This document shows positions 5,661-47,708 of a DNA stretch of 64,000 bases, piece after piece. The stretch is from positions 103,864 to 167,863 of the forward strand of contig JBBRLY010000016.1 in the NCBI GenBank assembly GCA_038231155.1. Direction: 5' to 3'. The stretch's first letter is position 1. Every line of letters begins with the position of its first letter. Source of the DNA: Candidatus Saccharimonadales bacterium (GTDB taxonomy: Bacteria; Patescibacteriota; Saccharimonadia; Saccharimonadales; JANWIN01). The translations under genes and the position numbers were made by a program. Under the pieces are notes generated by a model. It worked only from the letters and a program-made list of their open reading frames with translations. It made no database searches and was not told where the DNA came from.

Positions 5661-5666
5661 TTTAAG

Positions 5667-33064: not shown

Positions 33065-33160
33065 ATCACTAGAGTAAGGCACTAAATTACTAGCTAACTT
33101 ATTGGTAAAGTTAAGACTTAAGTTCATTGATAAACAACAAAAATATATTATCATAACAAA

Positions 33161-33700: not shown

Positions 33701-33768
33701 CTGTTACAGGCAAATATTATTATAACTAAGGTAAGATCTTGTACTTTAGGTCAATGATTTACTGTTAG

Positions 33769-34164: not shown

Positions 34165-34286
34165 CCAACTACAATAATCTCATATTATGGCTTTGGCTAG
34201 AGTTCGAAAACATGATTCTAGCATATGACATTAATGCGCCAATGAATGGATGGTCCGTCGTGAACGTTATCACAAATAGTGTTAGA

Positions 34287-34941: not shown

Positions 34942-35000
34942 CTAGTGTTTAAGTATAGCAAAACCAAAATATCCTGCGGATAGTCTTTTTACGCTGTTTG

Positions 35001-35010
35001 TACTTGGAGG
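35001..35010. repeat. left copy of 10-bp direct repeat TACTTGGAGG (candidate att core)
   Basis: Identical to 47628-47637, which spans the last 6 nt of tRNA-Lys (CCTCCA on the minus strand) plus 4 flanking nt. Confidence 0.45.
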
Positions 35011-35099
35011 TGCGTGTGCAGTGCTATTGCAACCAAATTACAAGATAATCCAACGATCTTTATTATGGCAATGTCGACTGATACCCAAATTTAACATGT

Positions 35100-37358
35100 T
35101 TAGTTAGTGGGGTCGATTTCAATAACTTCACCCTCAATCACGCCATCATCTTTCTTAATCTTCTCAGCCTCAACATGTCGATAAAGATACATAAATTGTT
35201 CTGCAACGAGGTATTCAAACGTTTTATCTGTATTAAAGTGGCCATCTGGATATTCTATGGCCTGATTCACCTCATCACCGAACTCTTTGGTAAGAGGACC
35301 AACGAACAACCCAGGATCAACTGCGGCAGCGATACTATCATAAGACTCTCGGCGAAAATCTGAACGTATCGGTTTTCCGGTGGTCATTTCATACCCATGA
35401 CCGACATATGCTTGCAAGAACTGTATAGCGAGTTTGGGGTCTTTCTTGAAACTTTCCTCAAGGTATTTCTGAATATCCTTGCTATCGCCCCATTTTTGCC
35501 ATATCCACATTAGGGAGGCAACATCATTGGGGTAGTCGGTTTGTACGTGATGGTTTTTAGTGTATGTCTTGATTCTTGTTGCCAGAATCTTACCAAGTTC
35601 ATGCACTTGATCCTCTGAAATCAGCGGCACAAAATCTGGTTTATCTTTATCATTCTCAGAGTTGACTCTGACCCATTGCAGCAATTGAGCAGCGTAGTTT
35701 ATCGGTGCATTACTGATGAATTTAGTAAGGGTCTCGTTGGCATTATCCACATTTTTCATGAGATGAACGGCAAGTATCGCAGACTGTACGTATGGCGACA
35801 TTGTGTCCCCGAGCAATGATTGTCTTGAACGCATGAGACTTGCTCCATTAGCAACAAGTACCTCGGCGAGAGTTTTGCTCGTCTGTTCAGGAAGTTTCTT
35901 CTCTCTTCGGCGTAACTTAGAAATGATCATGGCAACGTCAGCATCTTTGATCAGAGTCTGAAATATTTTACTGGCCTTTGCCGGTGATGTCTTCGGGTTA
36001 GTTATTGCAGCCAAGAAATCTTCAATTTTACTGTCGGCTATATCCCCGGGAGGGATCCCGTAAGAGAAGTATCGGTTAAAGTATTTATCCGTACACACCC
36101 TCTTTGCTTCTTCCCAATTCGCCTCAAAATCTCCGCCGTATGATGAGCCTCCGAGTGCCCATTCCACTGATGGGAATAATTCCTTAACAATGCTGACTTC
36201 CATCCCAGTAGGCTCGTCCTTGCCAAAGATTTTTCTACGAGTGCTTGTCTTTGCATTCTCATCTCGATCCCCATATGCACCTGATCTCAACACTACCTCT
36301 TTGCTCTTTGCCAGACGCTGATACAACTCTGGGAAGAAGATGCGTAACATATCAACCAGTGCTACATCGGTAAAACTGGCCTCATTTGATAGTCTTTCAA
36401 TAGAGAAGTCTACTGTATTGAGATACCGAACTATTCTTCGTGGCGTATTGAACAGTTTCTCAGCGTCCCTTGAGAAATAGACGGATTGGAATCTAGACAT
36501 GTCATCATCGGTAATATCGAACTTATGCCCAATGATGATTTTGTCCAACTCTTCCGTTAGGTATCTATTGAGCAGTTCCTGATCTACGTTTGGAACATAC
36601 AATGGTAGTTGTACTATTTTATCTATGAAGTTGTCTCCAACGTCGGAGTTGTTGGGATATCGCAATGCTAATGCATCTGCAACAACTTCACGATCAAATG
36701 AGAGTAGATAAGAAATATTACTAAAATGAGCGATATTCTTCACAAGTTTGAATACTTGATGAATCTCGTCGCTATCAAGCCTATCAATATCATCAATCAC
36801 TACAATCACTCGCTGGCCTGATTTAGCGAGTATCTTGTCGACTCGTTCTCTCGTTGAATCAACACTTATGACTTTATCGCTGTGAGCAACGCCAATGCGT
36901 TTTAATAACGAGCCGAGTATTTTGCCTATCAAGCCAGCGGGCGGGAAGAACGTACCTACGACATCCCCGACTGGTCCTGTAATCTCACCGTATCGTTTGA
37001 GTTCCTCAGCAACAACTTCACCGTTTGATCGTAATCTTGCTCCGAGTTTACTTGCTAATGTGCCAAAGAACGCCATATGCAGGCTTTCCGAGTTTGAGAA
37101 AACCCATGGATTGAACTTTATTACCACTGTTTTTTCGTTATATTTCTGATCAATATGCTCAACGGCCATGTTTATGACGGAGGTTTTGCCACTACCCCAC
37201 GACCCATATAGACCAACGGTAATCGATTGAGAATCTGGGACTTTTACTAGCGTTTCAGCTAGGGAGACAGAGAAATCTTTTCGGCCAAATCTATCTTCGT
37301 TAGATCGAGCAATGGGTTCATCTGGGCTTTTCTTGAATGTCTTCATTAGGCATTCCAA
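35100..37358 (-). CDS. KAP-family P-loop NTPase with a large uncharacterised C-terminal region
   Basis: 752 aa (748 if the ATG at 37346 is used). Walker A GLYGSWGSGKTS, FNPW motif, hydrophobic G/P-rich insert (ITGPVGDVVGTFFPPAGLIGKILGSLL), Walker B VIVVIDDIDRLD. Its start overlaps the hsdMS stop. Confidence 0.85.
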   Translation of the reverse strand: MECLMKTFKKSPDEPIARSNEDRFGRKDFSVSLAETLVKVPDSQSITVGLYGSWGSGKTSVINMAVEHIDQKYNEKTVVIKFNPWVFSNSESLHMAFFGTLASKLGARLRSNGEVVAEELKRYGEITGPVGDVVGTFFPPAGLIGKILGSLLKRIGVAHSDKVISVDSTRERVDKILAKSGQRVIVVIDDIDRLDSDEIHQVFKLVKNIAHFSNISYLLSFDREVVADALALRYPNNSDVGDNFIDKIVQLPLYVPNVDQELLNRYLTEELDKIIIGHKFDITDDDMSRFQSVYFSRDAEKLFNTPRRIVRYLNTVDFSIERLSNEASFTDVALVDMLRIFFPELYQRLAKSKEVVLRSGAYGDRDENAKTSTRRKIFGKDEPTGMEVSIVKELFPSVEWALGGSSYGGDFEANWEEAKRVCTDKYFNRYFSYGIPPGDIADSKIEDFLAAITNPKTSPAKASKIFQTLIKDADVAMIISKLRRREKKLPEQTSKTLAEVLVANGASLMRSRQSLLGDTMSPYVQSAILAVHLMKNVDNANETLTKFISNAPINYAAQLLQWVRVNSENDKDKPDFVPLISEDQVHELGKILATRIKTYTKNHHVQTDYPNDVASLMWIWQKWGDSKDIQKYLEESFKKDPKLAIQFLQAYVGHGYEMTTGKPIRSDFRRESYDSIAAAVDPGLFVGPLTKEFGDEVNQAIEYPDGHFNTDKTFEYLVAEQFMYLYRHVEAEKIKKDDGVIEGEVIEIDPTN

Positions 37359-39895
37359 ACCTCGGAAATATAATCTGCGATCTTTTTCTCATAAACAGAA
37401 ACCAATTTTTGGCTTCCCTTTATCAGATCATTTTCAGACTCCAGCTCATCTACTATTTGATGCTGAACGTCTAAAGATGGGAGGGGTATTTCAATATTAA
37501 GCAATTTGGGTTTTGATATATTTTTCATACTTCCACTTGTTCCGTTAGAGAGATCCGAAATCATTCTCCTATATTTCGGTGAGGAAATAACATACTGTAC
37601 GTAACGCATTGAAAGATCATTACCTTTTTTATCTGCTTGCCAAAGTCTGTCGGGCAAATAAAGTTCATTGTAGTCACTGTCAATGTATACACTCGCACCA
37701 ACTAACTCAGGGGTGTTCATTCTACTTATAATAATACTGTCTGTTTTTGGATTAATCTTTGCTCTGTGAAGTTCACTGTCAAGAATTACCTTGTTTTCTC
37801 GGGGGTTGAATGCGCCATATGATACAGCGCTTGTCTTGAGAATTCCGTGTTCGCCATCGCTCATTGGCCGGTTCATAGAATTCACACTAACACCGGCCTC
37901 GAGTTTAACGAACAGTTCATTAAGTTTAACTTTCGGCCACGATGTCTCGAATCTAATTTCCGGCTGATAAGTTTTTAGTATTATTTTTCCTGAGTCAGCA
38001 ATAACTCGATAACTATCTAAGGTTGCCACAATTTCCTTCTGCATTTCTATTGTCGGTAAAGGGATTTTATTGGCAAGAAAATAATCAACTTTGAGCCTTT
38101 TTCTATTTGATGTCCCAATGCTCGAGTCTTCACACAATTGTGTAAACTCAGCAGACTGAACGATGTAATCCAGAAATTTGGGAAAGATTCTGTCCATATT
38201 CGATTCAAAGACTGGAAAATCAGAAGTAACAATTGCCCCATCTAATTCTGATGTTACGATACCAAATGCCCCGTGGCGTGCATCAATTTTGGAAATTATA
38301 AAATCCCCTGCAAATGCAATAAATTGTCTCTTTGTTTTGATATCTTGACCTCGAATTGACTGCCGCAGGATAACACCTTTGCTAAATAATTTGACAGTTA
38401 TTTGCTTGTATTCTTTGGCATCTAACACCTCAACAGTACGGATCTGCGGAATCAGAATATCCTTCAGCTCAACCATTGGCCAACTGTTGCCTCTGGTGGA
38501 TTCAATCCTACTATCACCAATTATTTTGAGTGAGTGTACAGGATCGTTGTAGAGTGTATTCCGATCGATAATTCTGGTTTCAACTGTCAACTTACTGCCC
38601 ATCGATTCGGAATTCTTAAAACATTGAATTATGTTAAGGGCATCAGGAAGATCATTCGCATCAATTGGATTACGTAGCGAGCCCAGATCATAACCATCGC
38701 TTTTTACTTTAACAAACAGCACTTGTTTCGTCTTTGGATCAATCGTTTTGTCGAAAAAGAGAATGCTTGTCTTGGCGGTCTTAGCATATGGATTGAAGAT
38801 ACCGGTTGGAAGGCTCACAACACACCAAAGTCCGGCATCTAACAAAGATTGTCGAATCTTTCCATACGCTGCCTGATCTTTGAATAAAACGCCCTCTGGA
38901 ACAATAACGCCGCATCTACCGGCGGTACTGAGGTGCTTAGTCATATAATTCAAAAAGAGTACCTCTGTGGCACCAGTCCCCATTCGTAAATCCTCTGAGA
39001 CACTAGCTTTATCGACATTTCCAGAGAACGGTGGGTTGGCTAGGATCACATCCCACTTACCTCTATCACCTGTGGTGTCGACAAGTGTATTTTGCCGTTT
39101 GATGCTAGCGTGACTAAGATTGTGTAGATAGAGGTTCATTACGCCGAACTTCACCATATCCTCGTCGCTATCAAACCCAGTAAAAGCGTGATTGAAGATG
39201 AAGTCTCGTTCTTCGCCAGACAATTCATCCATTAAGAATGTACCGTCTTTTTTGAATCGTTCAGAGGTGTACTTGGTACGAAGGTGATTCAACGCCTCAA
39301 CGAGGAATCCGCCAGTCCCACAGGCTGGGTCTAGGATCGTCTCGCCCTTTTCTGGGTCGACCACATCCACCATGAACTTGATTACGTGGCGTGGGGTTCG
39401 GAACTGGCCGTTTGTACCGGCCTGAGCCAACTTAGAAAGTAAATACTCGTACATGTCGCCGAAAATGTCTTTGGAACCGTGCCTTGCGGCGGTATCCAGT
39501 TCAGTAACTAACTTCTCGATTTCATGTACCAATACACGTAAGGTAGGCTTGTCATATATCTTGATGTGGGCGTTGCGGTAGAGCAAAGCCACAGTTTTAT
39601 CGGTAGTCAGTTCCGGCAATTTGCGATACGCTTCCTCGAGTGTGTCGAACAAGATTTCAGCGTTGAGCATCAAAAGGTTGTCCCAACTGTATTTCATCAG
39701 TTCATCTTTGAAGATTGCATCATGATCTGGATTAAGCAATTTTGCCTCTTCATCGTGCTGAGTAAGAGCACGTAGGAACATCAAGTAATTGATCTGCTCG
39801 ATGATTGTTGCATGGCTCGCCACACCAGCCCCAAATAGCCTGTCCATGAGGTTGTCGATCTTGCGATGGAGGCCGGTAGCGTGGAATGGCTGCAT
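37346..39895 (-). CDS. hsdM: type I restriction-modification methyltransferase fused to the specificity subunit (HsdM-HsdS single polypeptide)
   Basis: 849 aa. HsdM N-domain, motif I DPACGTGGF, motif IV NPPF. Two TRD-like halves follow, each ending in the S-subunit conserved helix (KIPLPTIEMQKEIVATL and IEIPLPSLDVQHQIVDEL). Confidence 0.88.
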   Translation of the reverse strand: MQPFHATGLHRKIDNLMDRLFGAGVASHATIIEQINYLMFLRALTQHDEEAKLLNPDHDAIFKDELMKYSWDNLLMLNAEILFDTLEEAYRKLPELTTDKTVALLYRNAHIKIYDKPTLRVLVHEIEKLVTELDTAARHGSKDIFGDMYEYLLSKLAQAGTNGQFRTPRHVIKFMVDVVDPEKGETILDPACGTGGFLVEALNHLRTKYTSERFKKDGTFLMDELSGEERDFIFNHAFTGFDSDEDMVKFGVMNLYLHNLSHASIKRQNTLVDTTGDRGKWDVILANPPFSGNVDKASVSEDLRMGTGATEVLFLNYMTKHLSTAGRCGVIVPEGVLFKDQAAYGKIRQSLLDAGLWCVVSLPTGIFNPYAKTAKTSILFFDKTIDPKTKQVLFVKVKSDGYDLGSLRNPIDANDLPDALNIIQCFKNSESMGSKLTVETRIIDRNTLYNDPVHSLKIIGDSRIESTRGNSWPMVELKDILIPQIRTVEVLDAKEYKQITVKLFSKGVILRQSIRGQDIKTKRQFIAFAGDFIISKIDARHGAFGIVTSELDGAIVTSDFPVFESNMDRIFPKFLDYIVQSAEFTQLCEDSSIGTSNRKRLKVDYFLANKIPLPTIEMQKEIVATLDSYRVIADSGKIILKTYQPEIRFETSWPKVKLNELFVKLEAGVSVNSMNRPMSDGEHGILKTSAVSYGAFNPRENKVILDSELHRAKINPKTDSIIISRMNTPELVGASVYIDSDYNELYLPDRLWQADKKGNDLSMRYVQYVISSPKYRRMISDLSNGTSGSMKNISKPKLLNIEIPLPSLDVQHQIVDELESENDLIKGSQKLVSVYEKKIADYISEVWNA

Positions 39896-39897
39896 AT

Positions 39898-42273
39898 TTA
39901 GACTTTCAACAGTTTATTATTGTGAACATCTGAAACAATTTCTTCGAGTTCATCTTTGCCGAATGTATCTAGCCACTCTCGTACTGAGTAACCCTGGTTG
40001 AATGGCTCACGTTGCAAGAAACTGATGTCGGATGCCTTTTGTAGCGACTTGCGTAATCTGTCGTCTTGTACAACTTCGGTAGCAATCAAATCAACCATCA
40101 ACGCTCGTCGCTGTGTTGCGCCTGGCTTCTTGCCGTATTTATAGATCATGCCTTGTTTCCATTGCTCTAATTGCTCGTCTCGCTCAGGCAAAGACTTTTT
40201 CTTGAGTGCCGACAGCAAGAAGTCTTTTACCGTCGCAATTACTCGGTATGAACTGATCAGACTCTCTTCGTTAAAATAGTGGCTCGGTCGGTTGAGCAGT
40301 TCACTGTTGATGAGTTCGATCAATTCTTCAGTCTTATCTTCATTATCGATCATCGTTGCGACTTCGGGATGGCTCGTCACAAACTGCTGGACTGCTGACG
40401 TCCACTCGTCTTTGTACATCTCACGATCAACCTTGTCGCCGTCGGGTCCAACTTCGATAAGGTTACGTGTGCCGATCATATCGGCCTGATGAGAGACGAC
40501 CGGTTCGGTCTTAACCACTTCTTCGTTATTCGATTCGGAAGTCTGCTCAGACGATTGTATCGAGTGAGCGGCCTCTTTGTCAGCCTTGTTTCGGTCAATT
40601 GGCTTCTTGAGCGGTGCTTCCCAATCGTAATTTTCCTCAAAGTATTCACATACGCCGCAAAAATCGAACATCACGAACTGCTTCTTGTCGATTTCCTTGC
40701 ACAGGCGAGTCCCACGGCCTTTAATCTGTTGGTACAGAGTTGGCTCGAATACTGGACGAGCAAGCACAATGTTCTGCACTTCGGGAGCGTCAAAGCCGGT
40801 TGTGAGCATATCGACCGAGACGGCAATACGAGGCAGTTGGTTATCGGGGTTCTTGAAGTCTCGAGCAATCTCACTCGCACCCTGTACGCTACTGGTGATC
40901 GTTCTGGCAAATCGCCCATTATATTCGGGGTGCATTGCGTTTAGCACTTTTTCAAGCTCAAGAGCATGTCGCTGTGACACGGCAAAGACTATGGTCTTAC
41001 CAATCTCACCTCTGTTATTTCGCTCAGCGTACTCTAGGAACTCGGCCATCATCGCCTTATTACGCTCAGGCAAATAAACTTTCTTTTCAAGGTCACGAAT
41101 TTTGTAATTCTCACCCTCGACATCCTCTTCGGTCAGCACCAGGCCATCTTCGCTCAAAGCGGCTTGCGTGAGTATAGTATTCATTTTGTGAAGTTTGGGC
41201 GGAATGAGGAATTCATCTTTAACACCGTCCTGAATGGTATAGCGGAATGTGGCATTGCCGTCCTCACAACCAAAGTAACGATAGGTATCTCGCTGGATAC
41301 GGGCTTCAACAGCACGAGGATCGTTGATTTCCAACTTCTCTAAATCAAGATTCTTGAGGAAATCACGAGGTGTGGCGGTTAAACCGATCTTGGTTGCACC
41401 GACAAAGTAATCCATTGCCGCTCTCGCTTGCGGACTGTAAATACTGCGATGTGCCTCGTCATGGATAATCAGGTCGAAATAACCCGACGAAAAGATGTCT
41501 TTACCATGTAGAGCAAGCGATTGAATCGTCGCAATCACGACATTTGCCCCTGTTAAGTTCTTTCGAGACGACCCCCAATACGTGGCAACGCTTGAGAGGC
41601 CACCCAGGAGACGTTCAAACGATCCTTTAGTCTGTGATGCTAGCTCCACTCGATCCACAACAAATAGCACCGTCTGGGCTTGATGGGTACGCAGAAACTT
41701 ACTGATAATCAGGCCCGCTAGAACGGTCTTGCCTGTACCGGTTGCCATTTCGAGCAAGAAACTACGTTTGCCCTCGTCATAACGCTTTGCAATGCTCTGA
41801 TATGCCGCTATCTGGTATGGCCGAAGTTCGAGTGAGTTATCAATGTCTTTGAAGTAATCTTTTTCGACCGATTTCGTCGATAGAAGTTCGACCACTCCAA
41901 CACGTCCAACATTTCGCCTGCGCTCCAAATCTTCACGAGAGAAGAATGCCGGCACGGAAATAGCATCACCTGAAGCAATATCCCAAAAATAAACCACATG
42001 ATCGTTGGCGAGGTAGATATATTCGATCTGACCCTTGTATTGAGTCTCGGCGTAGTTCAATGCCTGTTGCTTGGCGGTATAGGGATCAATCTCAGGGGCT
42101 TTGGCTTCAATGAGTGCGATTGCTTTGCCTGAACGATCTTTGAGCACATAGTCTGCTCGACCGACGCTCCCGTGATCTTCAAACACGACTTGGCTTTGAT
42201 CTTCAATATCCCAACCAGCCTCACGTAATTTGCGATCGATGATGACTCTTGAATATGCTTCTTTTTGATTCAC
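39898..42273 (-). CDS. hsdR: type I restriction enzyme R subunit (EcoEI/type IB-like architecture)
   Basis: 791 aa. N-terminal PD-(D/E)xK (GRADYVLKD...IALIEAKAP), SF2 helicase motifs MATGTGKT, DEAH, TATP, QQIKGRGTR, acidic linker, C-terminal helical domain. GTG start. Confidence 0.9.
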   Translation of the reverse strand: MNQKEAYSRVIIDRKLREAGWDIEDQSQVVFEDHGSVGRADYVLKDRSGKAIALIEAKAPEIDPYTAKQQALNYAETQYKGQIEYIYLANDHVVYFWDIASGDAISVPAFFSREDLERRRNVGRVGVVELLSTKSVEKDYFKDIDNSLELRPYQIAAYQSIAKRYDEGKRSFLLEMATGTGKTVLAGLIISKFLRTHQAQTVLFVVDRVELASQTKGSFERLLGGLSSVATYWGSSRKNLTGANVVIATIQSLALHGKDIFSSGYFDLIIHDEAHRSIYSPQARAAMDYFVGATKIGLTATPRDFLKNLDLEKLEINDPRAVEARIQRDTYRYFGCEDGNATFRYTIQDGVKDEFLIPPKLHKMNTILTQAALSEDGLVLTEEDVEGENYKIRDLEKKVYLPERNKAMMAEFLEYAERNNRGEIGKTIVFAVSQRHALELEKVLNAMHPEYNGRFARTITSSVQGASEIARDFKNPDNQLPRIAVSVDMLTTGFDAPEVQNIVLARPVFEPTLYQQIKGRGTRLCKEIDKKQFVMFDFCGVCEYFEENYDWEAPLKKPIDRNKADKEAAHSIQSSEQTSESNNEEVVKTEPVVSHQADMIGTRNLIEVGPDGDKVDREMYKDEWTSAVQQFVTSHPEVATMIDNEDKTEELIELINSELLNRPSHYFNEESLISSYRVIATVKDFLLSALKKKSLPERDEQLEQWKQGMIYKYGKKPGATQRRALMVDLIATEVVQDDRLRKSLQKASDISFLQREPFNQGYSVREWLDTFGKDELEEIVSDVHNNKLLKV

Positions 42274-42382
42274 GTTTTATCCATGTCTAAATATAAAATT
42301 TGCTACCTCAAATCAGGTAGCCCACCCCCAGATTTTACCACGGGAAAGCACTTTGAAGTAGGAGGTTGTACAATAGAGTCAT

Positions 42383-42817
42383 ATGATAGGTCAAGCAATA
42401 ATCAATTCGCATACGTTGGATACCGCTAAAAACGGTAACGCTGTTGGCCGTCCCAAGGCGATAACCTCCGAAGTCGTCCATCAATTAATAGACTCACTTC
42501 GGCTGGGTTCTGACGTTACGGCTGCCTGTATTCTATCTGGTATCAGCACCTCGACTTATTACAACGAACTTGCGAGGAACAAGCGATTTATGGACAAAAT
42601 GACCATTGCTCAGCAAGAAACATCGCTTTATGCCAATACGCTTATTGCAAAAGCTATTAGACAAGGAGATATGAAGACGGTCAGATGGTATCTTGATCGC
42701 CAAGATCGACTTGCATACCACGCACAGCAATCGGCCAAAAATCGAAATACGAAAAAGATCATCATTACTGAGACTCATCAAAACACCCATTCTGTCAGTA
42801 TGGAAGTTGATCAGTAA
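42383..42817 (+). CDS. HTH DNA-binding protein (phage terminase-small-subunit/resolvase-HTH-like)
   Basis: 144 aa. Contains GRPKAITSEVVHQLIDSLRLGSDVTAACILSGISTSTYYN. Confidence 0.45.
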   Translation: MIGQAIINSHTLDTAKNGNAVGRPKAITSEVVHQLIDSLRLGSDVTAACILSGISTSTYYNELARNKRFMDKMTIAQQETSLYANTLIAKAIRQGDMKTVRWYLDRQDRLAYHAQQSAKNRNTKKIIITETHQNTHSVSMEVDQ

Positions 42818-42860
42818 GCACCCATTTCTCTTACGCAGTAAACGCTTTACTCAAGCCATT

Positions 42861-42890
42861 TTGAGATAGCCCACCAGAGAGTGTTATAAT
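42861..42890 (+). promoter_or_regulatory. strong sigma70-type promoter with extended -10 (TTGAGA-18 nt-TGtTATAAT)
   Basis: -35 TTGAGA at 42861-42866. TG at 42882-42883 followed by TATAAT at 42885-42890. Confidence 0.55.
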
Positions 42891-42896
42891 TTCGAT

Positions 42897-43113
42897 AACG
42901 CCATTCTTGGCGTTGGAACAATTTAGCAATGACCTAAACTCACCTCGGTGAGCATGGTTATAAATCCAGAAAAGCGTACTAAGCTCGTCGTTTAGGCATC
43001 TTTTCTGGTTGCACATCGAATGGTGTGCAGGGGTCGCAAGATCCCGCTTAGCGGCGAGCTTCGTGTGTCTCGCCGCCAGCATCAATTAGATGCCGAGTTA
43101 GGAGGCGGCGATC
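42897..43113 (+). ncRNA. candidate structured leader or ncRNA (seven consecutive hairpins) upstream of the SHOCT-domain gene
   Basis: Stems read directly from sequence: 42897-42914, 42939-42952, 42966-43008 (9 bp), 43010-43029, 43030-43045 (GCAA loop), 43051-43076 (8 bp GC-rich), 43079-43093. There is also alternative pairing with the SD-start region. Confidence 0.4.
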
Positions 43114-43686
43114 ATGGGATTACTCGACAGTATTAAAGATGGATATACCAAGAATCGGGAAGTGGCCGCTGAACGCAAAGATGTGAGGGGTGAGAAACTC
43201 GCACATGCACAATGCATTTATTTGGGTGGATATGAGGTTAAGCATAAAGCCGGTGGTAGCGTTACGTTTTTCGAGAATCAAATTGAGTTTAGTACCCTTG
43301 GTAAAGCCAAGTTTACGCTAACCAAGACGTTAGTGCGTGAAGTGGCCGTTGAGGGCAAGGACGAAGTTCATAGTCGTGTCACCGTCACACGCTTGCTCGT
43401 TCTCGGCATATTTGCTTTCGGGGCAAGGAAAAAGAACGAGGTCAAAGAATCTTATATCACGATAGTCTTGAATGATGGTCGAGAGGTTGTTTTACAGGTC
43501 AATAACATCGCCCCCGTGCAACTCAAGGCCAAATTTTCAAAGGTGTACGCTGCATACAACCAAAGCAAGCCACTGCAGCAAGGTTCAGCCACAGACGAAC
43601 TTGAGCGGCTGGCAGCACTCAAATCCAAGGGCGTAATAACCCAAGCCGAGTTTGATGCAAAGAAACGTCAACTACTGGGCTTATAG
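43114..43686 (+). CDS. protein with C-terminal SHOCT domain
   Basis: 190 aa. The C-terminus ELERLAALKSKGVITQAEFDAKKRQLLGL matches the SHOCT pattern. Good RBS AGGAGG 8 nt upstream. Confidence 0.6.
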   Translation: MGLLDSIKDGYTKNREVAAERKDVRGEKLAHAQCIYLGGYEVKHKAGGSVTFFENQIEFSTLGKAKFTLTKTLVREVAVEGKDEVHSRVTVTRLLVLGIFAFGARKKNEVKESYITIVLNDGREVVLQVNNIAPVQLKAKFSKVYAAYNQSKPLQQGSATDELERLAALKSKGVITQAEFDAKKRQLLGL

Positions 43687-43792
43687 CAATAGTTACAGCT
43701 ACAGCTTGATTCTCTGCAAATTGTTGGCCGTAGCCGTTAAACGGTAAACTGTATTTAGTACAAGTTCCTAGTTAACAGAATGAAGATGCAAA

Positions 43793-44413
43793 ATGAATAT
43801 CCGAGAATACACAGCACAAGCGGCAAAAGCACTATTAGCCAATCCTGAGTTTCAATCTGCTGTGGCTCAGACTAGAAACAACAACCACATAGCAGATTCT
43901 GCGCTTGCTGACGATGCCGCAATCGAGACTTGGTATAAGGATCGAGTTTACGGCAAGACGAATGCCGAGACGCCTCTGGATGATGCTGTGGCTGACATCA
44001 TCTTTCAATTCCAATTAAGTCCCGACTGGCGGCATAGCATCAAGCGTTACATACTGCTTAATAATCCCATGGATATGCAACTGCCGATGCACATTGAGGT
44101 AGGCGTAATAGAAGATGAACAAACCCGCCAATGGCGTGTTGTTGCCTACATACCCGAATACGCTTCCCAGCGAGATATTAAGGCGGCGTTGCCAGAAATA
44201 ACCAAGTGGCAAGAGAAAATACGAGCCAAGTCACTCAAGCGGCAGCCGGTATTTACCAATGAACTTGCCAAAGAAGCCTACGCTATATATCAGCGTGTAA
44301 GGAGTTATCAGAAAACGGCCACTGAACTCGGCGAAAAGTCACAGAGGAAGATTAGCCAAGAACAAGCCAGAGATTTAATCCGCAACTACAAAAAGCGGGT
44401 TGGTATCAATTGA
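43793..44413 (+). CDS. hypothetical island protein
   Basis: Track ORF of 206 aa. No motif recognised. Confidence 0.5.
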   Translation: MNIREYTAQAAKALLANPEFQSAVAQTRNNNHIADSALADDAAIETWYKDRVYGKTNAETPLDDAVADIIFQFQLSPDWRHSIKRYILLNNPMDMQLPMHIEVGVIEDEQTRQWRVVAYIPEYASQRDIKAALPEITKWQEKIRAKSLKRQPVFTNELAKEAYAIYQRVRSYQKTATELGEKSQRKISQEQARDLIRNYKKRVGIN

Positions 44414-44465
44414 ACCCCAAATAGTACCAATTATTCCTAAACGTTTATTTTGAGATTGTGTAGTC

Positions 44466-44729
44466 ATGATGATGACTGCATTAGATGAAGATGAGGCAAA
44501 GAAGCCATACACGACCAGCGATTTAGGTTGTATTACGGCTTTGGTATCCTCCGGTCTTCACATTCAGTCGTTAGATAAATCCAACCCCAGGCGGGTTGTT
44601 TTTGTTTTTGATCAGTCGGCGGCACTTTTGAAACTGGTCGATTCATATTGGAATGGGTCGCTTAATGTGGATGCTAAAACCTACTTTGAAACTCAAAAAT
44701 GGTTGAAATCCAGAATATACAACGGCTAA
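44466..44729 (+). CDS. hypothetical small island protein
   Basis: Track ORF of 87 aa. Confidence 0.45.
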   Translation: MMMTALDEDEAKKPYTTSDLGCITALVSSGLHIQSLDKSNPRRVVFVFDQSAALLKLVDSYWNGSLNVDAKTYFETQKWLKSRIYNG

Positions 44730-44731
44730 TT

Positions 44732-44950
44732 ATGGAATTTACTACCGCCGACATTAAACAGTTTCAGGGGCTTTACGTTAAGTATTTCAATATCAAGCTC
44801 ACCGATAGTATGGCTCGTGTGAAGTTGATGATGCTGGTTAGGCAAATGGAAATAGCATACCAGCCGATAACCCAAGAGCAGTTTGACAGGCTCAACAATG
44901 AAGATGGAAATGCACAAAATGAGCAGAGCAGATCAACAATCAATCGCTAA
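44732..44950 (+). CDS. hypothetical small island protein
   Basis: Track ORF 44699-44950 trimmed to the ATG at 44732, 2 nt after the preceding TAA. Confidence 0.4.
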   Translation: MEFTTADIKQFQGLYVKYFNIKLTDSMARVKLMMLVRQMEIAYQPITQEQFDRLNNEDGNAQNEQSRSTINR

Positions 44951-45425
44951 ATACTTCAAAAAGAAGCCCGTCCTTTATATTGGTGGTCTGGGGCAGGTAT
45001 TCTCGATGCCAGCCGGTATACTGCTAAGCCAACTGCTCTATTGGCATGGTCAGGGCGGGCGTAAAGACGGCTACATCTATAAGACTGCTGATGAGATTCG
45101 ATCTGAACTTGGCATGAGCCGCACAAGCCAAGAGACTGCGATCAAGCAATTAAGAGAGTGCGGCGTTATTGATTACAAGTTGGCTCAAGTTCCCGCCCGA
45201 CGGCATTTTAGAGTCAACCTTCAACGGTTACACGAATTGCTTCCCAGTTTGAAGGAAACCAGCAAACTGATTTATCCAAATCCGGCAAACTACTATGTTA
45301 CAAACAGCCAATCTATTACAAAGATTACCAGAGAGAATACATTAAAGAATACACCAATTGGGGATAAAAAGTCTTTCTTTGAAGCAAGAGCTGCCTTAAC
45401 GAGAAAGATGGGTAAGCCTCCTTGA
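44883..45425 (+). CDS. hypothetical winged-helix protein (replication-organiser-like); real start probably near 44910-44919
   Basis: 180 aa. TADEIRSELGMSRTSQETAIKQLRECGVIDYK resembles a wHTH. Confidence 0.45.
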   Translation: MTGSTMKMEMHKMSRADQQSIAKYFKKKPVLYIGGLGQVFSMPAGILLSQLLYWHGQGGRKDGYIYKTADEIRSELGMSRTSQETAIKQLRECGVIDYKLAQVPARRHFRVNLQRLHELLPSLKETSKLIYPNPANYYVTNSQSITKITRENTLKNTPIGDKKSFFEARAALTRKMGKPP

Positions 45426-45471
45426 TATTGCCATTAACGCTATATGGATATTTAAGAATAAGGAGAACAAT

Positions 45472-45852
45472 ATGGATGTGAGAAATTCTGATGCGGTTAA
45501 TGATTTGTTATATGAAGGGTTGGGGAAACTGTCAGGCGGGTGGAAGTATCAAATGGAGTCCCAACAACCCAAGCACTGCTCGTGGGTAACCTTGGATGCA
45601 GAGTTACAAAATTGTTGCGTGGATGCCGGGTCCTTTATCGGATATAAAGATGTGGGAGAAATGAAGTCTAAGGTCGTTGAACTTGTACAGGTAGCGATGA
45701 GCGAGGAGTTACTTGAAATGGTAAGAACAGGCGAAATTCTGCATTTGAGTTTCCGTATAGGCCCTAGTGCCATATCTGGATATAACTACAACGAAGAACA
45801 TGGCATCGAAGAGTTTGAGTATTCAGATAAAAATGAAAAGGCTGTACAATAA
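45472..45852 (+). CDS. hypothetical island protein
   Basis: Track ORF of 126 aa with RBS AAGGAGAA upstream. Confidence 0.5.
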   Translation: MDVRNSDAVNDLLYEGLGKLSGGWKYQMESQQPKHCSWVTLDAELQNCCVDAGSFIGYKDVGEMKSKVVELVQVAMSEELLEMVRTGEILHLSFRIGPSAISGYNYNEEHGIEEFEYSDKNEKAVQ

Positions 45853-45856
45853 CAAC

Positions 45857-45948
45857 GTTGACCCAGTTATGTTCCAAGAAGCTTTTTTATGCTCTTCTGC
45901 CTGTTCTGGGGCGGTTCAGCCAGAAGCCTTCTTGGTGACTGGGTCAAC
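45857..45948. repeat. 92-nt imperfect palindrome between the cargo module and the recombinase gene
   Basis: Perfect 11-bp arms GTTGACCCAGT (45857-45867) and ACTGGGTCAAC (45938-45948). Inner 8-bp arms CCAAGAAG (45874-45881) and CTTCTTGG (45928-45935). Confidence 0.6.
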
Positions 45949-45987
45949 CTGAACCGTCCCTTTTGGGACTCTAAGGAGGGCATAAAA

Positions 45988-47673
45988 ATGAAAAATAGCA
46001 AAGGTTTGCGTTATATCGCTTACGTTCGTAAATCATCTGAAGATAAAGAGAAGCAGGAACTTTCTCATATCAGTCAGATTGAGAATATTAAAGACAAGTT
46101 CGGCCACCTCAACATAGTTAAGTGGATGGAACCAGAAAGCCGTTCGGCCTTTACGCCTGGTCGACCAATCTTTAATGAAATGATGGCAATGATTGAAAAG
46201 GGTGAGGCAGACGCTATTGTTGCGTGGCACCCGAACCGTTTATCTCGAAATGAAATTGATAGTGGTGAACTCACCTATTTATTACGAAGTAAATTGAAAG
46301 ATTTACAGTTTTGCTCTTATAAGTTTGATAACAACCCCGAAGGTATCATGATGTTGCAAATTGTCATGAATCAGGGGCAATACCAGTCATCCAAACAAGG
46401 TGTTGATGTAAAGCGTGGCATGGAAACAAAGGCTGATACCGGTGAAAAGCCAGGTCGTGTCATGCCAGGGTATATGAAGCAAACTGTCTTGGACGAGTAC
46501 GGCCAGCCGGTTATTCATGGCAAGAAGATAATCACAATGACAGTCAAAGATCCCGAACGTTACGATACGGTCAAACAAATGTGGAAGTGGTATTTGTACG
46601 AGCGGCAGTCGCCTCAACAAATATGGAAAAGGGTCAACGAGGAATTACATTATAAGACCGTTCCATACAAGAACAGAAAAGACGGCAGTATTAAGGGTGG
46701 CGAACCAATGAACAAAAGTATGGTTTACCGAATATTTCAGAATCCGTTTTATGCCGGCCAATACCTCCATAACGGCGTCCTTCGCAAGGGCAACTACCAA
46801 GACATCAAAATGATCACTTGGGACGAGTATAAGTTGGCACAGGAACTATTGGGTGCAAGAGCGAACCAACGTGTCGGCACGTTTGAATATGCCTTTGCCA
46901 GCATGATCAAATGTGGTGTCTGTGATTGCCAAATACAAGCTCGCCACCGTACCAAGTTCGTTAAGAGCGAGAATAAATTCAAGACGTATGTGTACTATTA
47001 CTGTTCACGCAAAAGCGAAAAACGACCATGCAATCAAAACGATTACACATTGGTTGAGGACGTTGAGCGTGACATTGATATGGAGTTACGCAAATACACC
47101 ATCATTCCCGAATTCAAAGACATGGCATTAAAACTGTTGAGCCGCAATCACAAGATTGAGGCCAGTGAGCGTACAAGTATTTATGACAAACTGCAAAAGC
47201 AACGCAAGACCATGCAGAGTGAACTTGATAGCCTTATCGGCTACCTGCATCGTGAGTTGATAGATGAAGACGACTACAAGCGTCAACGCAACTTACTCAA
47301 GGTTGAGCTGAACAGTATTGATGAACAACTACGCAATACCGAGAGACGTGCCGAGAATAATATGGAACTCAATGAGAAAGCATTCAACTTCGCCGTATAT
47401 GCCCGATCACACTTTGAGAATGGTGACGTCCGAACCAAGAGAGATACGTTGCGGACATTGGGCCAAAGCCTGATACTCAAAGACAATACGCTGTACATCG
47501 AGCCAAACGAATGGTTGGTGCCGATTTGCAATGCTTACCCTGAACTTGAGAAACGCTACATCTGGGCTCGAACCAACAAAAAAGCCACCCTACAGATGAA
47601 AGAGGCGGCTTTAATGGAAATTATGAATACTTGGAGGGCCCACTGGGACTCGAACCCAGGACACCCTGCTTAA
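45988..47673 (+). CDS. large serine recombinase (integrase)
   Basis: 561 aa from the ATG at 45988 (RBS AAGGAGGG). Resolvase catalytic domain YVRKSS...NRLSRN, recombinase domain, zinc ribbon CGVCDC...YYCSRK...C, C-terminal coiled coil. The last 14 codons are antisense to tRNA-Lys. Confidence 0.9.
   Translation: MKNSKGLRYIAYVRKSSEDKEKQELSHISQIENIKDKFGHLNIVKWMEPESRSAFTPGRPIFNEMMAMIEKGEADAIVAWHPNRLSRNEIDSGELTYLLRSKLKDLQFCSYKFDNNPEGIMMLQIVMNQGQYQSSKQGVDVKRGMETKADTGEKPGRVMPGYMKQTVLDEYGQPVIHGKKIITMTVKDPERYDTVKQMWKWYLYERQSPQQIWKRVNEELHYKTVPYKNRKDGSIKGGEPMNKSMVYRIFQNPFYAGQYLHNGVLRKGNYQDIKMITWDEYKLAQELLGARANQRVGTFEYAFASMIKCGVCDCQIQARHRTKFVKSENKFKTYVYYYCSRKSEKRPCNQNDYTLVEDVERDIDMELRKYTIIPEFKDMALKLLSRNHKIEASERTSIYDKLQKQRKTMQSELDSLIGYLHRELIDEDDYKRQRNLLKVELNSIDEQLRNTERRAENNMELNEKAFNFAVYARSHFENGDVRTKRDTLRTLGQSLILKDNTLYIEPNEWLVPICNAYPELEKRYIWARTNKKATLQMKEAALMEIMNTWRAHWDSNPGHPA
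47628..47637. repeat. right copy of 10-bp direct repeat TACTTGGAGG (candidate att core)
   Basis: Overlaps the 3' terminal CCTCCA of tRNA-Lys. Identical to 35001-35010. Confidence 0.45.
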
Positions 47674-47708
47674 AAGGCAGGTGCTCTAACCGGCTGAGCT
47701 ATGGGCCC
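47632..47708 (-). tRNA. tRNA-Lys(TTT)
   Basis: 77 nt. Acceptor GGGCCCA/TGGGCCC, anticodon stem CCTGC/GCAGG, loop CT-TTT-AA, T arm CTGGG-TTCGAGT-CCCAG, encoded CCA. Confidence 0.9.

What the first reader, a model, noticed from the sequence alone, without database searches (positions are those of the whole stretch)
35001..47708. About 12.6-kb serine-recombinase island integrated at the 3' end of tRNA-Lys(TTT)
Seen in sequence: (1) A 561-aa large serine recombinase gene ends inside tRNA-Lys, with ORF 45988-47673 and tRNA 47632-47708 on the opposite strand. (2) The 10-mer TACTTGGAGG, covering the tRNA's terminal CCTCCA plus 4 flanking nt, recurs exactly once more, at 35001-35010. That site is in the non-coding gap beyond the last cargo gene. 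(3) Spot GC is about 47-48% inside versus 35-42% outside. (4) The content is defence cargo plus small phage-like genes, with no capsid, tail or large terminase genes. Established: integrative elements commonly target tRNA 3' ends and regenerate them. Serine integrases need only short common cores. Inference: the boundaries are attL 35001-35010 and attR 47628-47637.
Basis: partly seen in the sequence, partly recalled or inferred. Interest (0 to 1): 0.7.

Follow-up and report, generated by a model that had tools for sequence, protein, structure and literature searches.

The report
Serine-integrase defence island at tRNA-Lys
A 12.6-kb mobile element carrying anti-phage genes sits at the end of a lysine tRNA gene in a Saccharibacteria (TM7) genome, and its integrase gene runs across the element's own attachment site, so insertion swaps the enzyme's C-terminal tail for one read off the antisense strand of the tRNA.

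Summary
tRNA-Lys(UUU) lies at 47632-47708 (-). A 561-aa large serine recombinase gene (45988-47673, +) ends 42 nt inside it. TACTTGGAGG occurs only at 35001 and 47628 (0.04 expected by chance).

- The "non-coding gap" 35011-35094 is the displaced 3' end of the integrase gene.
- Joining 47637 to 35011 continues the ORF for 27 codons.
- That tail is homologous to the tails of unintegrated relatives (L085, and L090, an 8,030-bp circle).
- A distant relative at tRNA-Lys(CUU) shows the same layout, with a 13-bp repeat.

The host is Saccharibacteria. None of 80 related species carries the element at this syntenic locus.

Cargo is a type I restriction-modification system plus a PifA-like ATPase. The backbone holds a replication initiator, a small-terminase-like protein, a LOOT RNA (Rfam RF03000) and the integrase.

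Antisense to the integrase's conserved RTNKKA motif is a hairpin plus T-run, which would terminate the tRNA transcript.

No empty site or circle was found for this exact element. Whether the tail swap has a function is untested. I rate it a new variant of a known kind, closest to tycheposons and other tRNA-targeting islands.

The parts
35001..35010 (.). attL common core TACTTGGAGG. It is the antisense of the tRNA's terminal CCTCCA plus 4 nt of trailer.
   Evidence: It is one of only two copies in the window. Host trailer lies to its left and the integrase-tail coding arm to its right.
35011..35094 (+). Displaced 3' end of the integrase gene (the P' arm of attP). It holds 27 codons, CVCSAIATKLQDNPTIFIMAMSTDTQI, plus a stop. 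It is in frame with the integrase only when 47637 is joined to 35011.
   Evidence: The translation is homologous to the natural C-terminal tail of P0002 in L085 (WRAVCKTIATKLQDNPTIFITAIG). Against L085 there are 6 synonymous and 5 non-synonymous codon differences.
35100..37358 (-). Cargo: PifA-like KAP-family P-loop NTPase, a candidate abortive-infection defence protein.
   Evidence: Pfam KAP_NTPase 2e-50. PADLOC PifA 4.2e-90 over residues 10-663.
37346..39895 (-). Cargo: type I R-M methyltransferase fused to a two-TRD specificity subunit (HsdM-HsdS, 849 aa).
   Evidence: N6_Mtase 1e-54 plus two Methylase_S stretches. PADLOC MTase_I 8e-108 and Specificity_I hits.
39898..42273 (-). Cargo: type I restriction subunit HsdR of the EcoAI / type IB family.
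   Evidence: ResIII, Helicase_C, EcoEI_R_C and HSDR_N domains. NCBIfam restrict_EcoAI 1e-86, which is below that model's curated cutoff. PADLOC REase_I 6e-67.
42383..42817 (+). Backbone: small-terminase-like helix-turn-helix protein (144 aa).
   Evidence: PHROG 4102 terminase small subunit 1.6e-12. Pfam Sf6_terminase is below its cutoff. A homologue sits in the attP-form relative L085.
42931..43045 (+). Backbone: LOOT RNA (Rfam RF03000, function unknown), upstream of the plus-strand backbone operon.
   Evidence: 72.1 bits against a gathering score of 46.4, matching the full model 1-121. Also present in related elements L085, L086 and L093. Absent from 7 loci that lack an intact element.
43114..43686 (+). 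Backbone: SHOCT-domain protein (190 aa).
   Evidence: Pfam SHOCT 2.5e-9. A SHOCT-domain gene sits at the equivalent backbone position in L085, L086, L093 and L096.
43793..44413 (+). Backbone: conserved protein of unknown function (206 aa).
   Evidence: 40-45% identical homologues in the attP-form elements L085 and L090.
44466..44950 (+). Backbone: DUF5659 protein (44466-44729) and an overlapping 83-aa ORF (44699-44950).
   Evidence: DUF5659 1.5e-11. Both are conserved in L085, L086 and L090, and the 83-aa ORF also in L087.
44883..45425 (+). Backbone: replication initiator (lambda O-like / DnaD-like winged helix).
   Evidence: PHROG 9773 'replication initiation O-like' 8.6e-26, and DnaD-like loader 1.2e-14. 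DnaD_N is precomputed on the syntenic genes of relatives.
45472..45852 (+). Small ORF (126 aa) directly upstream of the integrase, function unknown. It could be a directionality factor, but nothing supports that.
   Evidence: No family hit in any library.
45988..47673 (+). Large serine recombinase (integrase), prophage-form isoform of 561 aa. The last 12 codons (AHWDSNPGHPA plus stop) are read from the antisense strand of tRNA-Lys.
   Evidence: Pfam Resolvase, Recombinase and Zn ribbon domains. The AF2 model of relative P0002 shows NTD, RD, ZD and a long coiled coil. Foldseek gives full-length matches to an attL/RDF-bound serine integrase (9dxd), phiC31 and Bxb1 integrases, E down to 5e-17.
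47575..47612 (-). Intrinsic-terminator-like hairpin plus T-run for tRNA-Lys, encoded antisense inside the integrase ORF. The T-run is the antisense of the NKK codons of the conserved RTNKKA motif.
   Evidence: Fold energy -17.5 kcal/mol, z = -1.96. The same hairpin plus T-run is present in all 5 loci compared, and 4 of 10 pairs show compensatory changes.
47628..47637 (.). attR common core TACTTGGAGG.
   Evidence: Comparison with the 13-bp core of the L087 element narrows the shared crossover interval to NNTGGAGG, 47630-47637.
47632..47708 (-). Host tRNA-Lys(UUU), intact, with an encoded CCA. This is the integration target.
   Evidence: ARAGORN and Rfam. The same tRNA sits at the syntenic locus in 59 related genomes.

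Best explanation
Positions 35001-47637 are an integrated, probably still mobile, 12.6-kb element in a Saccharibacteria chromosome. It is neither a complete prophage nor a conjugative element.

Its large serine recombinase recombined an element site (attP) with the 3' end of tRNA-Lys(UUU). Strand exchange fell somewhere within NNTGGAGG, the antisense of the tRNA's terminal CCTCCA. This left the tRNA intact and produced 10-bp direct repeats.

attP lies inside the 3' end of the integrase ORF. The excised circle therefore encodes a 577-aa integrase with an element-encoded 27-aa tail. The integrated copy encodes a 561-aa protein whose last 11 residues and stop codon come from the antisense strand of the tRNA.

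The element also replaces the tRNA's native trailer with its own hairpin plus T-run, embedded antisense in the integrase coding sequence.

Once excised, the circle is presumably replicated by its O/DnaD-like initiator. While integrated, it gives the host a type I R-M system and a PifA-like ATPase.

Shown by sequence comparison: the boundaries, the tail swap, the attP configuration in relatives (one assembled as a circle), the conserved terminator-like hairpin and the cargo identities.

Inferred: current mobility of this copy, the exact crossover dinucleotide, the route of cell-to-cell transfer, and any regulatory role of the tail swap or the LOOT RNA.
For: - The 10-mer occurs only at the two ends.
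- LSR identity rests on domains, fold and invariant residues.
- The synthetic 47637|35011 junction is colinear with the natural contig L085, whose gene order is the circular permutation expected of an excised element...rep, Int, [attP], terS-like, PifA(-).
- L090 has a 30-nt terminal overlap, and a 528-aa ORF closes across its ends, giving an 8,030-bp circle in attP form. The same integrase occurs in three samples.
- The L087/88/89 element (integrase 54% identical) at tRNA-Lys(CUU) has a 13-bp direct repeat. An in-frame tail remnant, WRAIVVAIATRIQSNAY*, follows its attL.
- 96 of the 120 closest homologues end in an antisense-tRNA tail. Eight more (...WRAI*) match the tRNA-Lys(CUU) pattern verified for P0094. 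Five carry attP-type tails.
- Elements L086 and L093 sit at the same tRNA-Lys next to DnaK-DnaJ. They share backbone genes (SHOCT, DUF5659, the replication initiator) but carry different R-M cargo.
- 80 species keep DnaK-DnaJ-RimK-[tRNA-Lys]-YebC-RuvCAB synteny without any island gene.
- Composition is distinct.
- The terminator-like hairpin is conserved with compensatory changes.
Against: - No empty site and no circular junction were found for this exact element. The left-flank proteins are singletons at 90% identity among 15 billion proteins. The attP-form protein is not in the collection. Two metagenome scans returned nothing.
- No recombination directionality factor was identified.
- Dyad symmetry of the reconstructed attP and attB is no better than chance.
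- No relative of the integrase occurs in IMG/VR viral contigs or in phage or plasmid records (at most 26% identity). The transfer route is therefore unknown.
- The small-terminase call rests on a PHROG hit only; Pfam is below its cutoff.
Confidence: 0.85

Rival explanations
1. The element is a phage satellite of the PICI type or PICI-like tycheposon type. After induction by a helper Saccharibacteria phage it excises, replicates from its own initiator, and uses its small-terminase-like protein to be packaged into helper capsids.
For: The gene set of integrase, replication initiator and terS-like protein, with no structural genes, matches satellite architecture. The size is 8-13 kb. The backbone is conserved while cargo varies across relatives. 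PICI-like tycheposons with terS are described at tRNA genes (bioRxiv 10.1101/2020.12.28.424599).
Against: terS similarity is modest: PHROG 1.6e-12, Pfam below cutoff, plus a weak hit to the transposase HTH. No capsid-remodelling gene, repressor or helper-sensing gene was recognised. No family member occurs in IMG/VR.
Confidence: 0.3
2. The element is an integrative plasmid-like or cargo-carrying tycheposon-like element. It moves as naked or vesicle-borne DNA, or by natural transformation, and the terS-like protein is only a DNA-binding regulator.
For: An 8,030-bp circular relative assembles as a free replicon with a replication initiator. No relaxase or coupling protein was found. The window encodes PilM homologues, which may belong to a DNA-uptake pilus (my inference).
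Against: There is no direct evidence for any transfer route. The terS-like gene is found in L085 and a similarly placed ORF in L093, which suggests a role beyond generic regulation.
Confidence: 0.4
3. The copy in this window is an immobile, decaying remnant that is now just a fixed defence island.
For: Relic attL arms without integrases are common at this hotspot in other species, so decay does happen. No excised form of this exact element was found.
Against: The 561-aa integrase ORF is intact and keeps all family-invariant residues. The two 10-bp cores are identical. The 27-codon tail remnant is open, in frame and conserved. All backbone genes and the LOOT RNA are full length.
Confidence: 0.15
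4. The 10-mer repeat is coincidental and the true island extends further left, for example to YebC at about 32100.
For: The region 32183-34941 is also absent from the 80 relatives and has its own composition (38.5% GC).
Against: The sequence immediately right of 35010 is the homologous continuation of the integrase ORF seen in the attP-form relatives. L085 places PifA directly after it. No tail-like or core-like relic lies in 32100-35000. The chance expectation for the 10-mer is 0.04.
Confidence: 0.03

Closest known systems
Large serine recombinase (LSR) integrases of temperate phages and integrative elements (phiC31, Bxb1, SPbeta SprA, Listeria A118/LI Int, TP901-1)
   Same: The domain order is the same: resolvase NTD, recombinase domain, zinc ribbon with an inserted coiled coil. 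Foldseek gives full-length matches to solved serine-integrase, phiC31 and Bxb1 complexes. The common core between the reconstructed attP and attB is short.
   Different: Sequence identity to any phage, plasmid or PDB integrase is 26% or less. The target is a tRNA 3' end, which PMC3218068 calls rare for serine recombinases. attP lies inside the integrase's own ORF. From memory, not checked here, the classical integrases have attP beside the gene rather than within it.
Tycheposons of Prochlorococcus (Hackl et al., bioRxiv 10.1101/2020.12.28.424599)
   Same: These are small tRNA-targeting elements with a site-specific integrase plus a replication module. They carry either cargo or PICI-like terS. 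New arrivals push older remnants away from the tRNA, building islands strewn with partial att or tRNA relics. The same is seen here as relic attL arrays in L068 and other loci.
   Different: 910 of 937 tycheposon-type elements use tyrosine recombinases and leave partial-tRNA repeats of about 40 nt. Here the enzyme is an LSR, the repeat is 10-13 bp, the host is a CPR bacterium, the cargo is defence, and the integrase ORF spans attP.
Integration-dependent immunity of cluster G/N/P mycobacteriophages such as BPs (Broussard et al. 2013, as reviewed in PMC9262239)
   Same: attP lies inside a coding sequence, attB overlaps a tRNA 3' end, and integration changes the C-terminus of the encoded protein. 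The integration state is thus written into a protein isoform.
   Different: In those phages the split gene is the repressor, the integrase is a tyrosine recombinase, the common core is about 35 bp, and the removed tail is an ssrA-like degradation tag. Here the split gene is the serine integrase itself, and the tails (...STDTQI...ITAIG...TALAQ) show no consistent ssrA-like ending.
SSV-type archaeal integrases (Sulfolobus SSV1); this comparison is from my own knowledge and was not checked here
   Same: attP is located within the integrase gene and the target is a tRNA gene, so integration partitions or alters the integrase gene.
   Different: SSV integrases are tyrosine recombinases and the gene is split into two separate fragments. 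Here only the last 27 codons are exchanged, and a full-length ORF persists in both states.
phiRSM1 (Ralstonia) and mycobacterial AICEs, which use serine recombinases at tRNA genes
   Same: They are serine-recombinase-mediated integrations into the 3' end of a tRNA gene (tRNA-Ser, tRNA-Leu) (PMC3218068).
   Different: The recombinase lineages and hosts differ. That source describes no overlap of the recombinase ORF with the tRNA.

Membership tests
Large serine recombinase (serine integrase) | N-terminal resolvase-type catalytic domain with the nucleophilic serine and conserved arginines | tested here: met
   PF00239 3.2e-17. R14, S16, R84 and R87 are invariant in the 38-sequence alignment.
Large serine recombinase (serine integrase) | Recombinase domain, then a zinc-ribbon domain carrying a long coiled-coil insertion | tested here: met
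   PF07508 and PF13408. The AF2 model has helices 374-478 between the zinc-ribbon strands. Foldseek matches a serine integrase complex (9dxd), phiC31 and Bxb1 integrases over about 560 columns, E = 5e-17.
Large serine recombinase (serine integrase) | Short (about 40-50 bp) attP and attB sharing only a small core around a 2-bp crossover, with no arm-type sites | tested here: inconclusive
   The core is 10 bp here and 13 bp in L087. The crossover dinucleotide cannot be fixed, and dyad symmetry is not above chance.
Large serine recombinase (serine integrase) | Excision requires a cognate recombination directionality factor | not testable with these tools
   No candidate was recognised among the small ORFs. 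HTH_17 genes occur in relative L086 only.
tRNA-integrated genomic island / integrative element | Flanked by direct repeats derived from the tRNA 3' end, with the tRNA left intact | tested here: met
tRNA-integrated genomic island / integrative element | Absent from the syntenic locus of related genomes (empty sites) | tested here: met
   80 Saccharibacteria species loci keep the synteny and the tRNA but have no island gene. No same-species genome is available.
tRNA-integrated genomic island / integrative element | Existence of an excised circular form with the predicted attP junction | tested here: inconclusive
   Met for relatives: L085 is in attP configuration and L090 is an 8,030-bp circle. 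Not found for this exact element.
Integrative conjugative / mobilizable element (ICE/IME) | Relaxase, with or without a coupling protein and type IV secretion genes | tested here: not met
   No such family appears among any of the element's proteins in Pfam, PHROGs or NCBIfam.
Complete temperate prophage | Capsid, portal, large terminase and tail genes | tested here: not met
   None in the 12.6 kb. No family member occurs in IMG/VR.
Phage satellite (PICI-like) | Integrase, replication module and a packaging-hijack gene (terS or a capsid-remodelling gene), with helper dependence | tested here: inconclusive
   The integrase and replication initiator are present. The terS-like call is PHROG 1.6e-12 but Pfam is below its cutoff. 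Helper dependence is not testable.
Integration-dependent gene-product switching (BPs-type) | attP inside a coding sequence, so that integration alters the C-terminus of the product | tested here: met
   The integrase ORF continues across the 47637|35011 junction for 27 codons that are homologous to natural attP-form tails.
Integration-dependent gene-product switching (BPs-type) | Tyrosine integrase; the split gene is the repressor; the removed tail is an ssrA-like degradation tag | tested here: not met
   The enzyme is a serine recombinase, the split gene is the integrase itself, and the tails have no consistent -LAA-like ending.
Type I restriction-modification system | HsdR, HsdM and HsdS functions encoded together | tested here: met
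   HsdR (39898-42273) and a fused HsdM-HsdS with two TRDs (37346-39895). Activity was not tested.
PifA (F-plasmid phage-exclusion protein) | Full-length similarity to the PifA KAP NTPase | tested here: met
   PADLOC PDLC02361 4.2e-90, residues 10-663 against model positions 5-677 of 720. The defence phenotype was not tested.
LOOT RNA (Rfam RF03000) | Covariance-model score at or above the curated gathering threshold over the full model | tested here: met
   72.1 bits against 46.4, model positions 1-121 of 121. Scores of 65-82 bits in three related elements.

The most novel reading that the evidence does not exclude
A large clade of tRNA-targeting large serine integrases, abundant in Saccharibacteria, places attP inside its own 3' coding end as a built-in state sensor. 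The free circle would make an integrase with an element-encoded tail that is under purifying selection. The integrated copy would make an isoform whose tail is dictated by the antisense tRNA and whose mRNA converges on a strongly transcribed tRNA gene. The two isoforms, or their expression levels, would differ in activity, directionality or stability, giving switch-like control of integration versus excision without, or in addition to, a separate directionality factor. The same stretch of DNA would then serve at once as integrase coding sequence, tRNA terminator and attP arm. The orphan LOOT RNA would be the element's leader or regulatory RNA.
Probability: 0.3. Interest if true: 0.75.

Novelty: new variant of a known kind. 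Interest (0 to 1): 0.62.

Why it matters
- My literature searches found no description of integrative elements like this one in CPR/Patescibacteria. This gives a well-delimited, apparently widespread family that brings R-M and abortive-infection-type defence genes into very small genomes at a fixed tRNA-Lys hotspot.
- The architecture is unusual for a serine integrase. attP lies within the integrase ORF, the C-terminal tail depends on integration state, and an antisense terminator-like hairpin that would serve the target tRNA is embedded in the coding sequence. Swapping the two tails in vitro would test directly how LSR directionality or stability can be controlled.
- The relic attL arrays have unrelated host-side arms. 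This suggests that attB recognition relies mainly on the tRNA half-site, which is relevant to engineering LSRs.
- An orphan Rfam family, LOOT, now has a genomic context.
- About 40% of the 150 best cluster representatives of this LSR clade carry the antisense-T-loop signature at their C-terminus. The phenomenon is therefore general and not peculiar to one locus.

Tried and rejected
- Same-species empty site. An exact scan of JGI metagenome contigs for the left flank plus core (matching attL or attB) found nothing. A degenerate scan for the tail-coding arm also found nothing, and it missed even the JGI contig L085, so that collection is incomplete. The left-flank proteins are singletons at 90% identity, so no sister strain exists in the 15-billion-protein collection.
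- Excised form of this exact element. The 577-aa attP-form protein is not in the collection.
- Logan contigs L001, L002 and L084 all end inside tRNA-Lys. I first read this as a sign of population heterogeneity. It is more simply explained by the conserved tRNA 5' half shared among co-occurring species, so I did not use it as evidence.
- Dyad symmetry of the reconstructed attP and attB, to locate the crossover. The best scores (9-13 of 22) do not exceed chance.
- Viral origin. No relative occurs in IMG/VR with a single protein or with the alignment. Phage and plasmid records reach at most 26% identity.
- A longer or degenerate tRNA-derived repeat elsewhere in the window that would move the left boundary. 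None was found.
- ssrA-like degradation tags on the attP-form tails. No consistent motif appeared.
- Literature on LOOT RNA. The main text of PMC5737381 does not discuss it and no supplement is held.
- Searches for earlier descriptions of Saccharibacteria or Patescibacteria serine-recombinase elements at tRNA genes gave nothing specific.

Full report
**1. Checking the observation**

ARAGORN finds tRNA-Lys(ttt) at 47632-47708 on the minus strand, and Rfam agrees. The plus-strand ORF ending at 47673 carries Resolvase, Recombinase and Zn_ribbon_recom domains.

The last 42 nt of the ORF are the reverse complement of the tRNA's 3' half. They read ACT TGG AGG GCC CAC TGG GAC TCG AAC CCA GGA CAC CCT GCT TAA, which translates to TWRAHWDSNPGHPA*. 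The stop codon falls in the anticodon loop.

TACTTGGAGG occurs only at 35001 and 47628. Shuffles give a mean of 0.04 occurrences, and none of 100 shuffles reached two. No longer or degenerate copy of the tRNA end exists elsewhere in the window.

The island is 44.0% GC against 40.4% for the rest of the window. Other 12.6-kb windows range from 39.0 to 42.0%. Its tetranucleotide distance is three to four times that of any other window.

**2. Host and locus**

The flanks encode PilM homologues, RuvABC and YebC on one side. On the other side are a 164-aa membrane protein, RimK, a RimB-like protein, DnaJ, DnaK, GrpE and HrcA.

A genome scan with RimK returned 80 loci. Most are titled Saccharibacteria or Saccharimonadales MAGs, with 75-88% identity. 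They share the order DnaK-DnaJ-RimB-RimK-membrane protein-[variable 2-8 kb]-YebC-RuvCAB. In 59 of them a tRNA-Lys(ttt) sits in the variable interval. None contains a homologue of the integrase or of any island gene. Those loci are therefore unoccupied in other species.

No genome of the same species is available. The left-flank proteins are singletons at 90% identity among 15 billion proteins. Two metagenome scans found nothing.

**3. The decisive evidence for the boundaries**

The integrase has a large family of full-length homologues at 50-80% identity.
- 96 of the best 120 end in ...WRA(Q/R)(W/R)D(S/L)NPRH(P/S)A. This is an antisense tRNA 3' half translated in the same frame.
- Eight more end ...WRAI*. 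For P0094 this is the same arrangement at a tRNA-Lys(CUU) whose T-arm supplies an earlier stop.
- Five have a different, longer tail. For example, P0002 ends ...SWRAVCKTIATKLQDNPTIFITAIG.

Reading the window's attL inner flank (35011-35094) in the frame set by ...ACT TGG AGG gives CVCSAIATKLQDNPTIFIMAMSTDTQI*. This is plainly homologous to the P0002 tail.

The synthetic sequence 45988-47637 plus 35011-37400 aligns colinearly with the natural contig L085 that encodes P0002. Identity is 74% over 1,695 nt, and the alignment runs 62 nt past the junction.

L085's gene order is SHOCT, orf206, DUF5659, orf83, replication initiator, Int, then the terS-like gene and PifA on the opposite strand. That is the circular permutation expected of an excised copy.

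A second attP-form relative is P0056, whose integrase is 57% identical and occurs in three samples. One contig, L090, has a 30-nt terminal overlap, and a 528-aa ORF closes across its ends. It is therefore an 8,030-bp circle.

An independent integrated element (P0094, 54% identical; L087/88/89) has a 13-bp direct repeat, CATGGAGGGCCAT. Directly after its attL core comes the in-frame remnant WRAIVVAIATRIQSNAY*.

The "non-coding gap" is the displaced 3' end of the integrase gene. Intersecting the two cores places the crossover within NNTGGAGG, provided its position is conserved across the family.

**4. Anatomy**

Next to attL lies the cargo, all on the minus strand:
- a PifA-like KAP NTPase (PADLOC 4e-90);
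- a fused HsdM-HsdS with two target-recognition domains;
- an EcoAI-family HsdR.

The plus-strand backbone follows:
- a small-terminase-like HTH protein (PHROG 1.6e-12; Pfam below its cutoff);
- a LOOT RNA (RF03000, 72 bits against a gathering score of 46);
- a SHOCT protein, a conserved 206-aa protein, DUF5659 and an 83-aa ORF;
- a lambda-O/DnaD-like replication initiator (PHROG 8.6e-26);
- a 126-aa ORF and then the integrase.

Related elements at the same tRNA-Lys (L086, integrase 80% identical; L093, 75%) share backbone genes (SHOCT, DUF5659, the replication initiator) and the LOOT RNA. Their cargo differs: an N6_N4 methyltransferase with ResIII-type enzymes. LOOT is absent from seven loci that lack an intact element.

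No relaxase, capsid, portal or large terminase family was recognised.

The AF2 model of P0002 (mean pLDDT 79.8) shows the canonical LSR domains. A C-terminal helix, residues 535-562, runs straight through the crossover position. Foldseek gives full-length matches to solved serine-integrase complexes, including phiC31 and Bxb1. Sequence identity to any phage, plasmid or PDB integrase is 26% or less.

**5. Dual coding at the integrase 3' end**

About 20-55 nt downstream of the tRNA's CCA, on the tRNA strand, lies a GC-rich hairpin followed by TTTTTTGTT (47575-47612). Its fold energy is -17.5 kcal/mol, z = -1.96.

The T-run is the antisense of the NKK codons in the family's conserved RTNKKA motif. 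The same hairpin plus T-run is present in all five loci for which I have DNA. Stem sequences differ, and 4 of 10 pairs show compensatory changes.

The native trailer reconstructed at attL has only a weak 5-bp hairpin followed by a T-run. I infer that the element supplies a replacement terminator for the tRNA. This is not shown experimentally.

**6. Is the tail a real peptide?**

Between the window and L085, the 21 aligned tail codons differ at 6 synonymous and 5 non-synonymous positions. The preceding 60 integrase codons differ at 22 and 23. The tail thus evolves like the adjoining coding sequence. This holds even beyond the roughly 25 bp expected for an att half-site.

This supports a translated, constrained tail in the circle form. 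It does not reveal the tail's function. No ssrA-like tag is evident.

**7. Family-level picture**

A profile search of 1.84 billion cluster representatives gives 1,774 proteins at E <= 1e-30. Of the best 150, 60 carry the antisense-T-loop signature ((D/E)SN and similar) within their last 32 residues. Control windows inside the same proteins give 0-1. Some members target other tRNAs, for example P0100 and P0120, which end ...SWYPELDSNQRP.

Several unoccupied species loci contain orphan attL-type relics. Each consists of unique DNA, then TGGAGG, then a tail-coding arm. L068 has five in series. The segments between them hold a GntR regulator with an ABC transporter, an RHH/PIN toxin-antitoxin pair, a pilin-like gene and another PIN gene.

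This looks like serial integration and decay, which is the island-building model proposed for tycheposons. The host-side arms of these relics are unrelated to one another. That suggests attB recognition rests mainly on the tRNA half-site. This is an inference.

**8. Comparison with what is known**

- The enzyme is an LSR on every feature tested.
- Integration of serine recombinases into tRNA genes is described as rare (PMC3218068).
- The element's lifestyle most resembles tycheposons and PICI-like satellites. Those are overwhelmingly tyrosine-recombinase elements.
- Placing attP inside a coding sequence, so that integration alters the product, is known for mycobacteriophage integration-dependent immunity (PMC9262239). 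There the split gene is the repressor and the integrase is a tyrosine recombinase.
- It is also known for SSV-type archaeal integrases, which are tyrosine recombinases. That point is from my own knowledge.
- My literature searches found no description of a serine integrase whose ORF spans attP and exchanges its tail for antisense-tRNA codons. They also found nothing on such elements in Saccharibacteria. The library searched is incomplete, so prior description cannot be excluded.

**9. Verdict**

The finding is a new variant of a known kind.

What remains open:
- whether this copy is still mobile;
- how it transfers (satellite versus plasmid-like);
- which protein, if any, is the directionality factor;
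- whether the tail swap, the antisense overlap with the tRNA and the LOOT RNA have regulatory roles.

Noticed in passing
window 42931-43045 (+); L085 7031-7152; L086 6670-6788; L093 6498-6617: The orphan Rfam family LOOT RNA (RF03000) matches at full length (65-82 bits against a gathering score of 46.4). In all four elements with the closest integrases it lies in a non-coding gap of the backbone, upstream of a plus-strand gene (the SHOCT gene in the window and L086). It is absent from the more distant elements L087 and L090, and from 7 loci without an intact element.
   Followed up: partly
L068 15029-18541 (five copies, minus strand); L050 4373-4435; L075 12099-12173; L076 about 13183-13260; L079 12642-12698; L021 15193-15270: Orphan attL-type relics (unique DNA, then TGGAGG, then an in-frame tail-coding arm 'WR..AIATKLQ(D/E)NP..') lie downstream of tRNA-Lys in species that have no integrase there. 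In L068 the five relics are separated by segments holding a GntR regulator with an ABC transporter, an RHH/PIN toxin-antitoxin pair, a pilin-like gene with DUF5665, and a PIN gene. This suggests serial integration and decay.
   Followed up: partly
L004-L083, within 160 nt downstream of tRNA-Lys (for example L040, L006, L009, L043, L070): Nine of 58 related loci carry a significantly similar inverted copy of the tRNA's 3' half just after its terminator. In L040 it is a perfect 20-nt inverted repeat that includes the trailer. Eight loci carry direct partial copies. The tRNA itself points either way relative to RimK and YebC (35 loci '+', 24 loci '-'). The LSR integration model does not explain the inverted copies.
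   Followed up: partly
L096 (Logan SRR24807096 contig, 5849 bp), integrase 4166-5833: The metagenome that contains the window's organism also holds a second family member, P0047 (integrase 57% identical, with a SHOCT gene upstream). Its ORF ends antisense in a tRNA-Lys(CUU). The protein table lists the same longest-contig length (189,994 bp) for P0047 and for the window's own proteins, so this genome may carry two paralogous elements at the two tRNA-Lys genes.
   Followed up: partly
window 37346-39895 (-): HsdM and a complete two-TRD HsdS are fused into one 849-aa polypeptide, next to a separate EcoAI-family HsdR. This looks like an uncommon arrangement for a type I system (my impression, not checked).
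   Followed up: no
window 32183-34941: The 2.9 kb between YebC and attL is also absent from nearly all of the 80 related species and has lower GC (38.5%). It encodes a glyoxalase, a membrane protein, a 179-aa ORF, DUF1801, a 106-aa ORF and DUF5674. It appears to be older accessory DNA at the same hotspot, but it contains no recognisable att relic.
   Followed up: partly
proteins P0121-P0270 (cluster representatives): Sixty of the 150 best 50%-identity cluster representatives of this LSR clade have an antisense-T-loop-coded motif ((D/E)SN..) in their last 32 residues, against 0-1 in internal control windows. Some tails (for example P0122, ...NPRPTVLETVALPAELHPY) run much further past the motif. 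Ending inside a tRNA gene therefore appears to be a clade-wide habit involving several different tRNAs.
   Followed up: partly
L001 end, L002 end, L084 end (window 47663-47689): All the Logan contigs fetched for this region break inside tRNA-Lys. The most likely cause is that the tRNA's 5' half is shared among co-occurring Saccharibacteria, which creates a branch in the assembly graph.
   Followed up: no
Metagenome-contig collection: A degenerate pattern that matches the JGI contig L085 (Ga0558097_0031112) exactly returned no hit. That searchable collection therefore does not contain every JGI metagenome reachable through the protein-based tools, and negative scans there carry little weight.
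   Followed up: no
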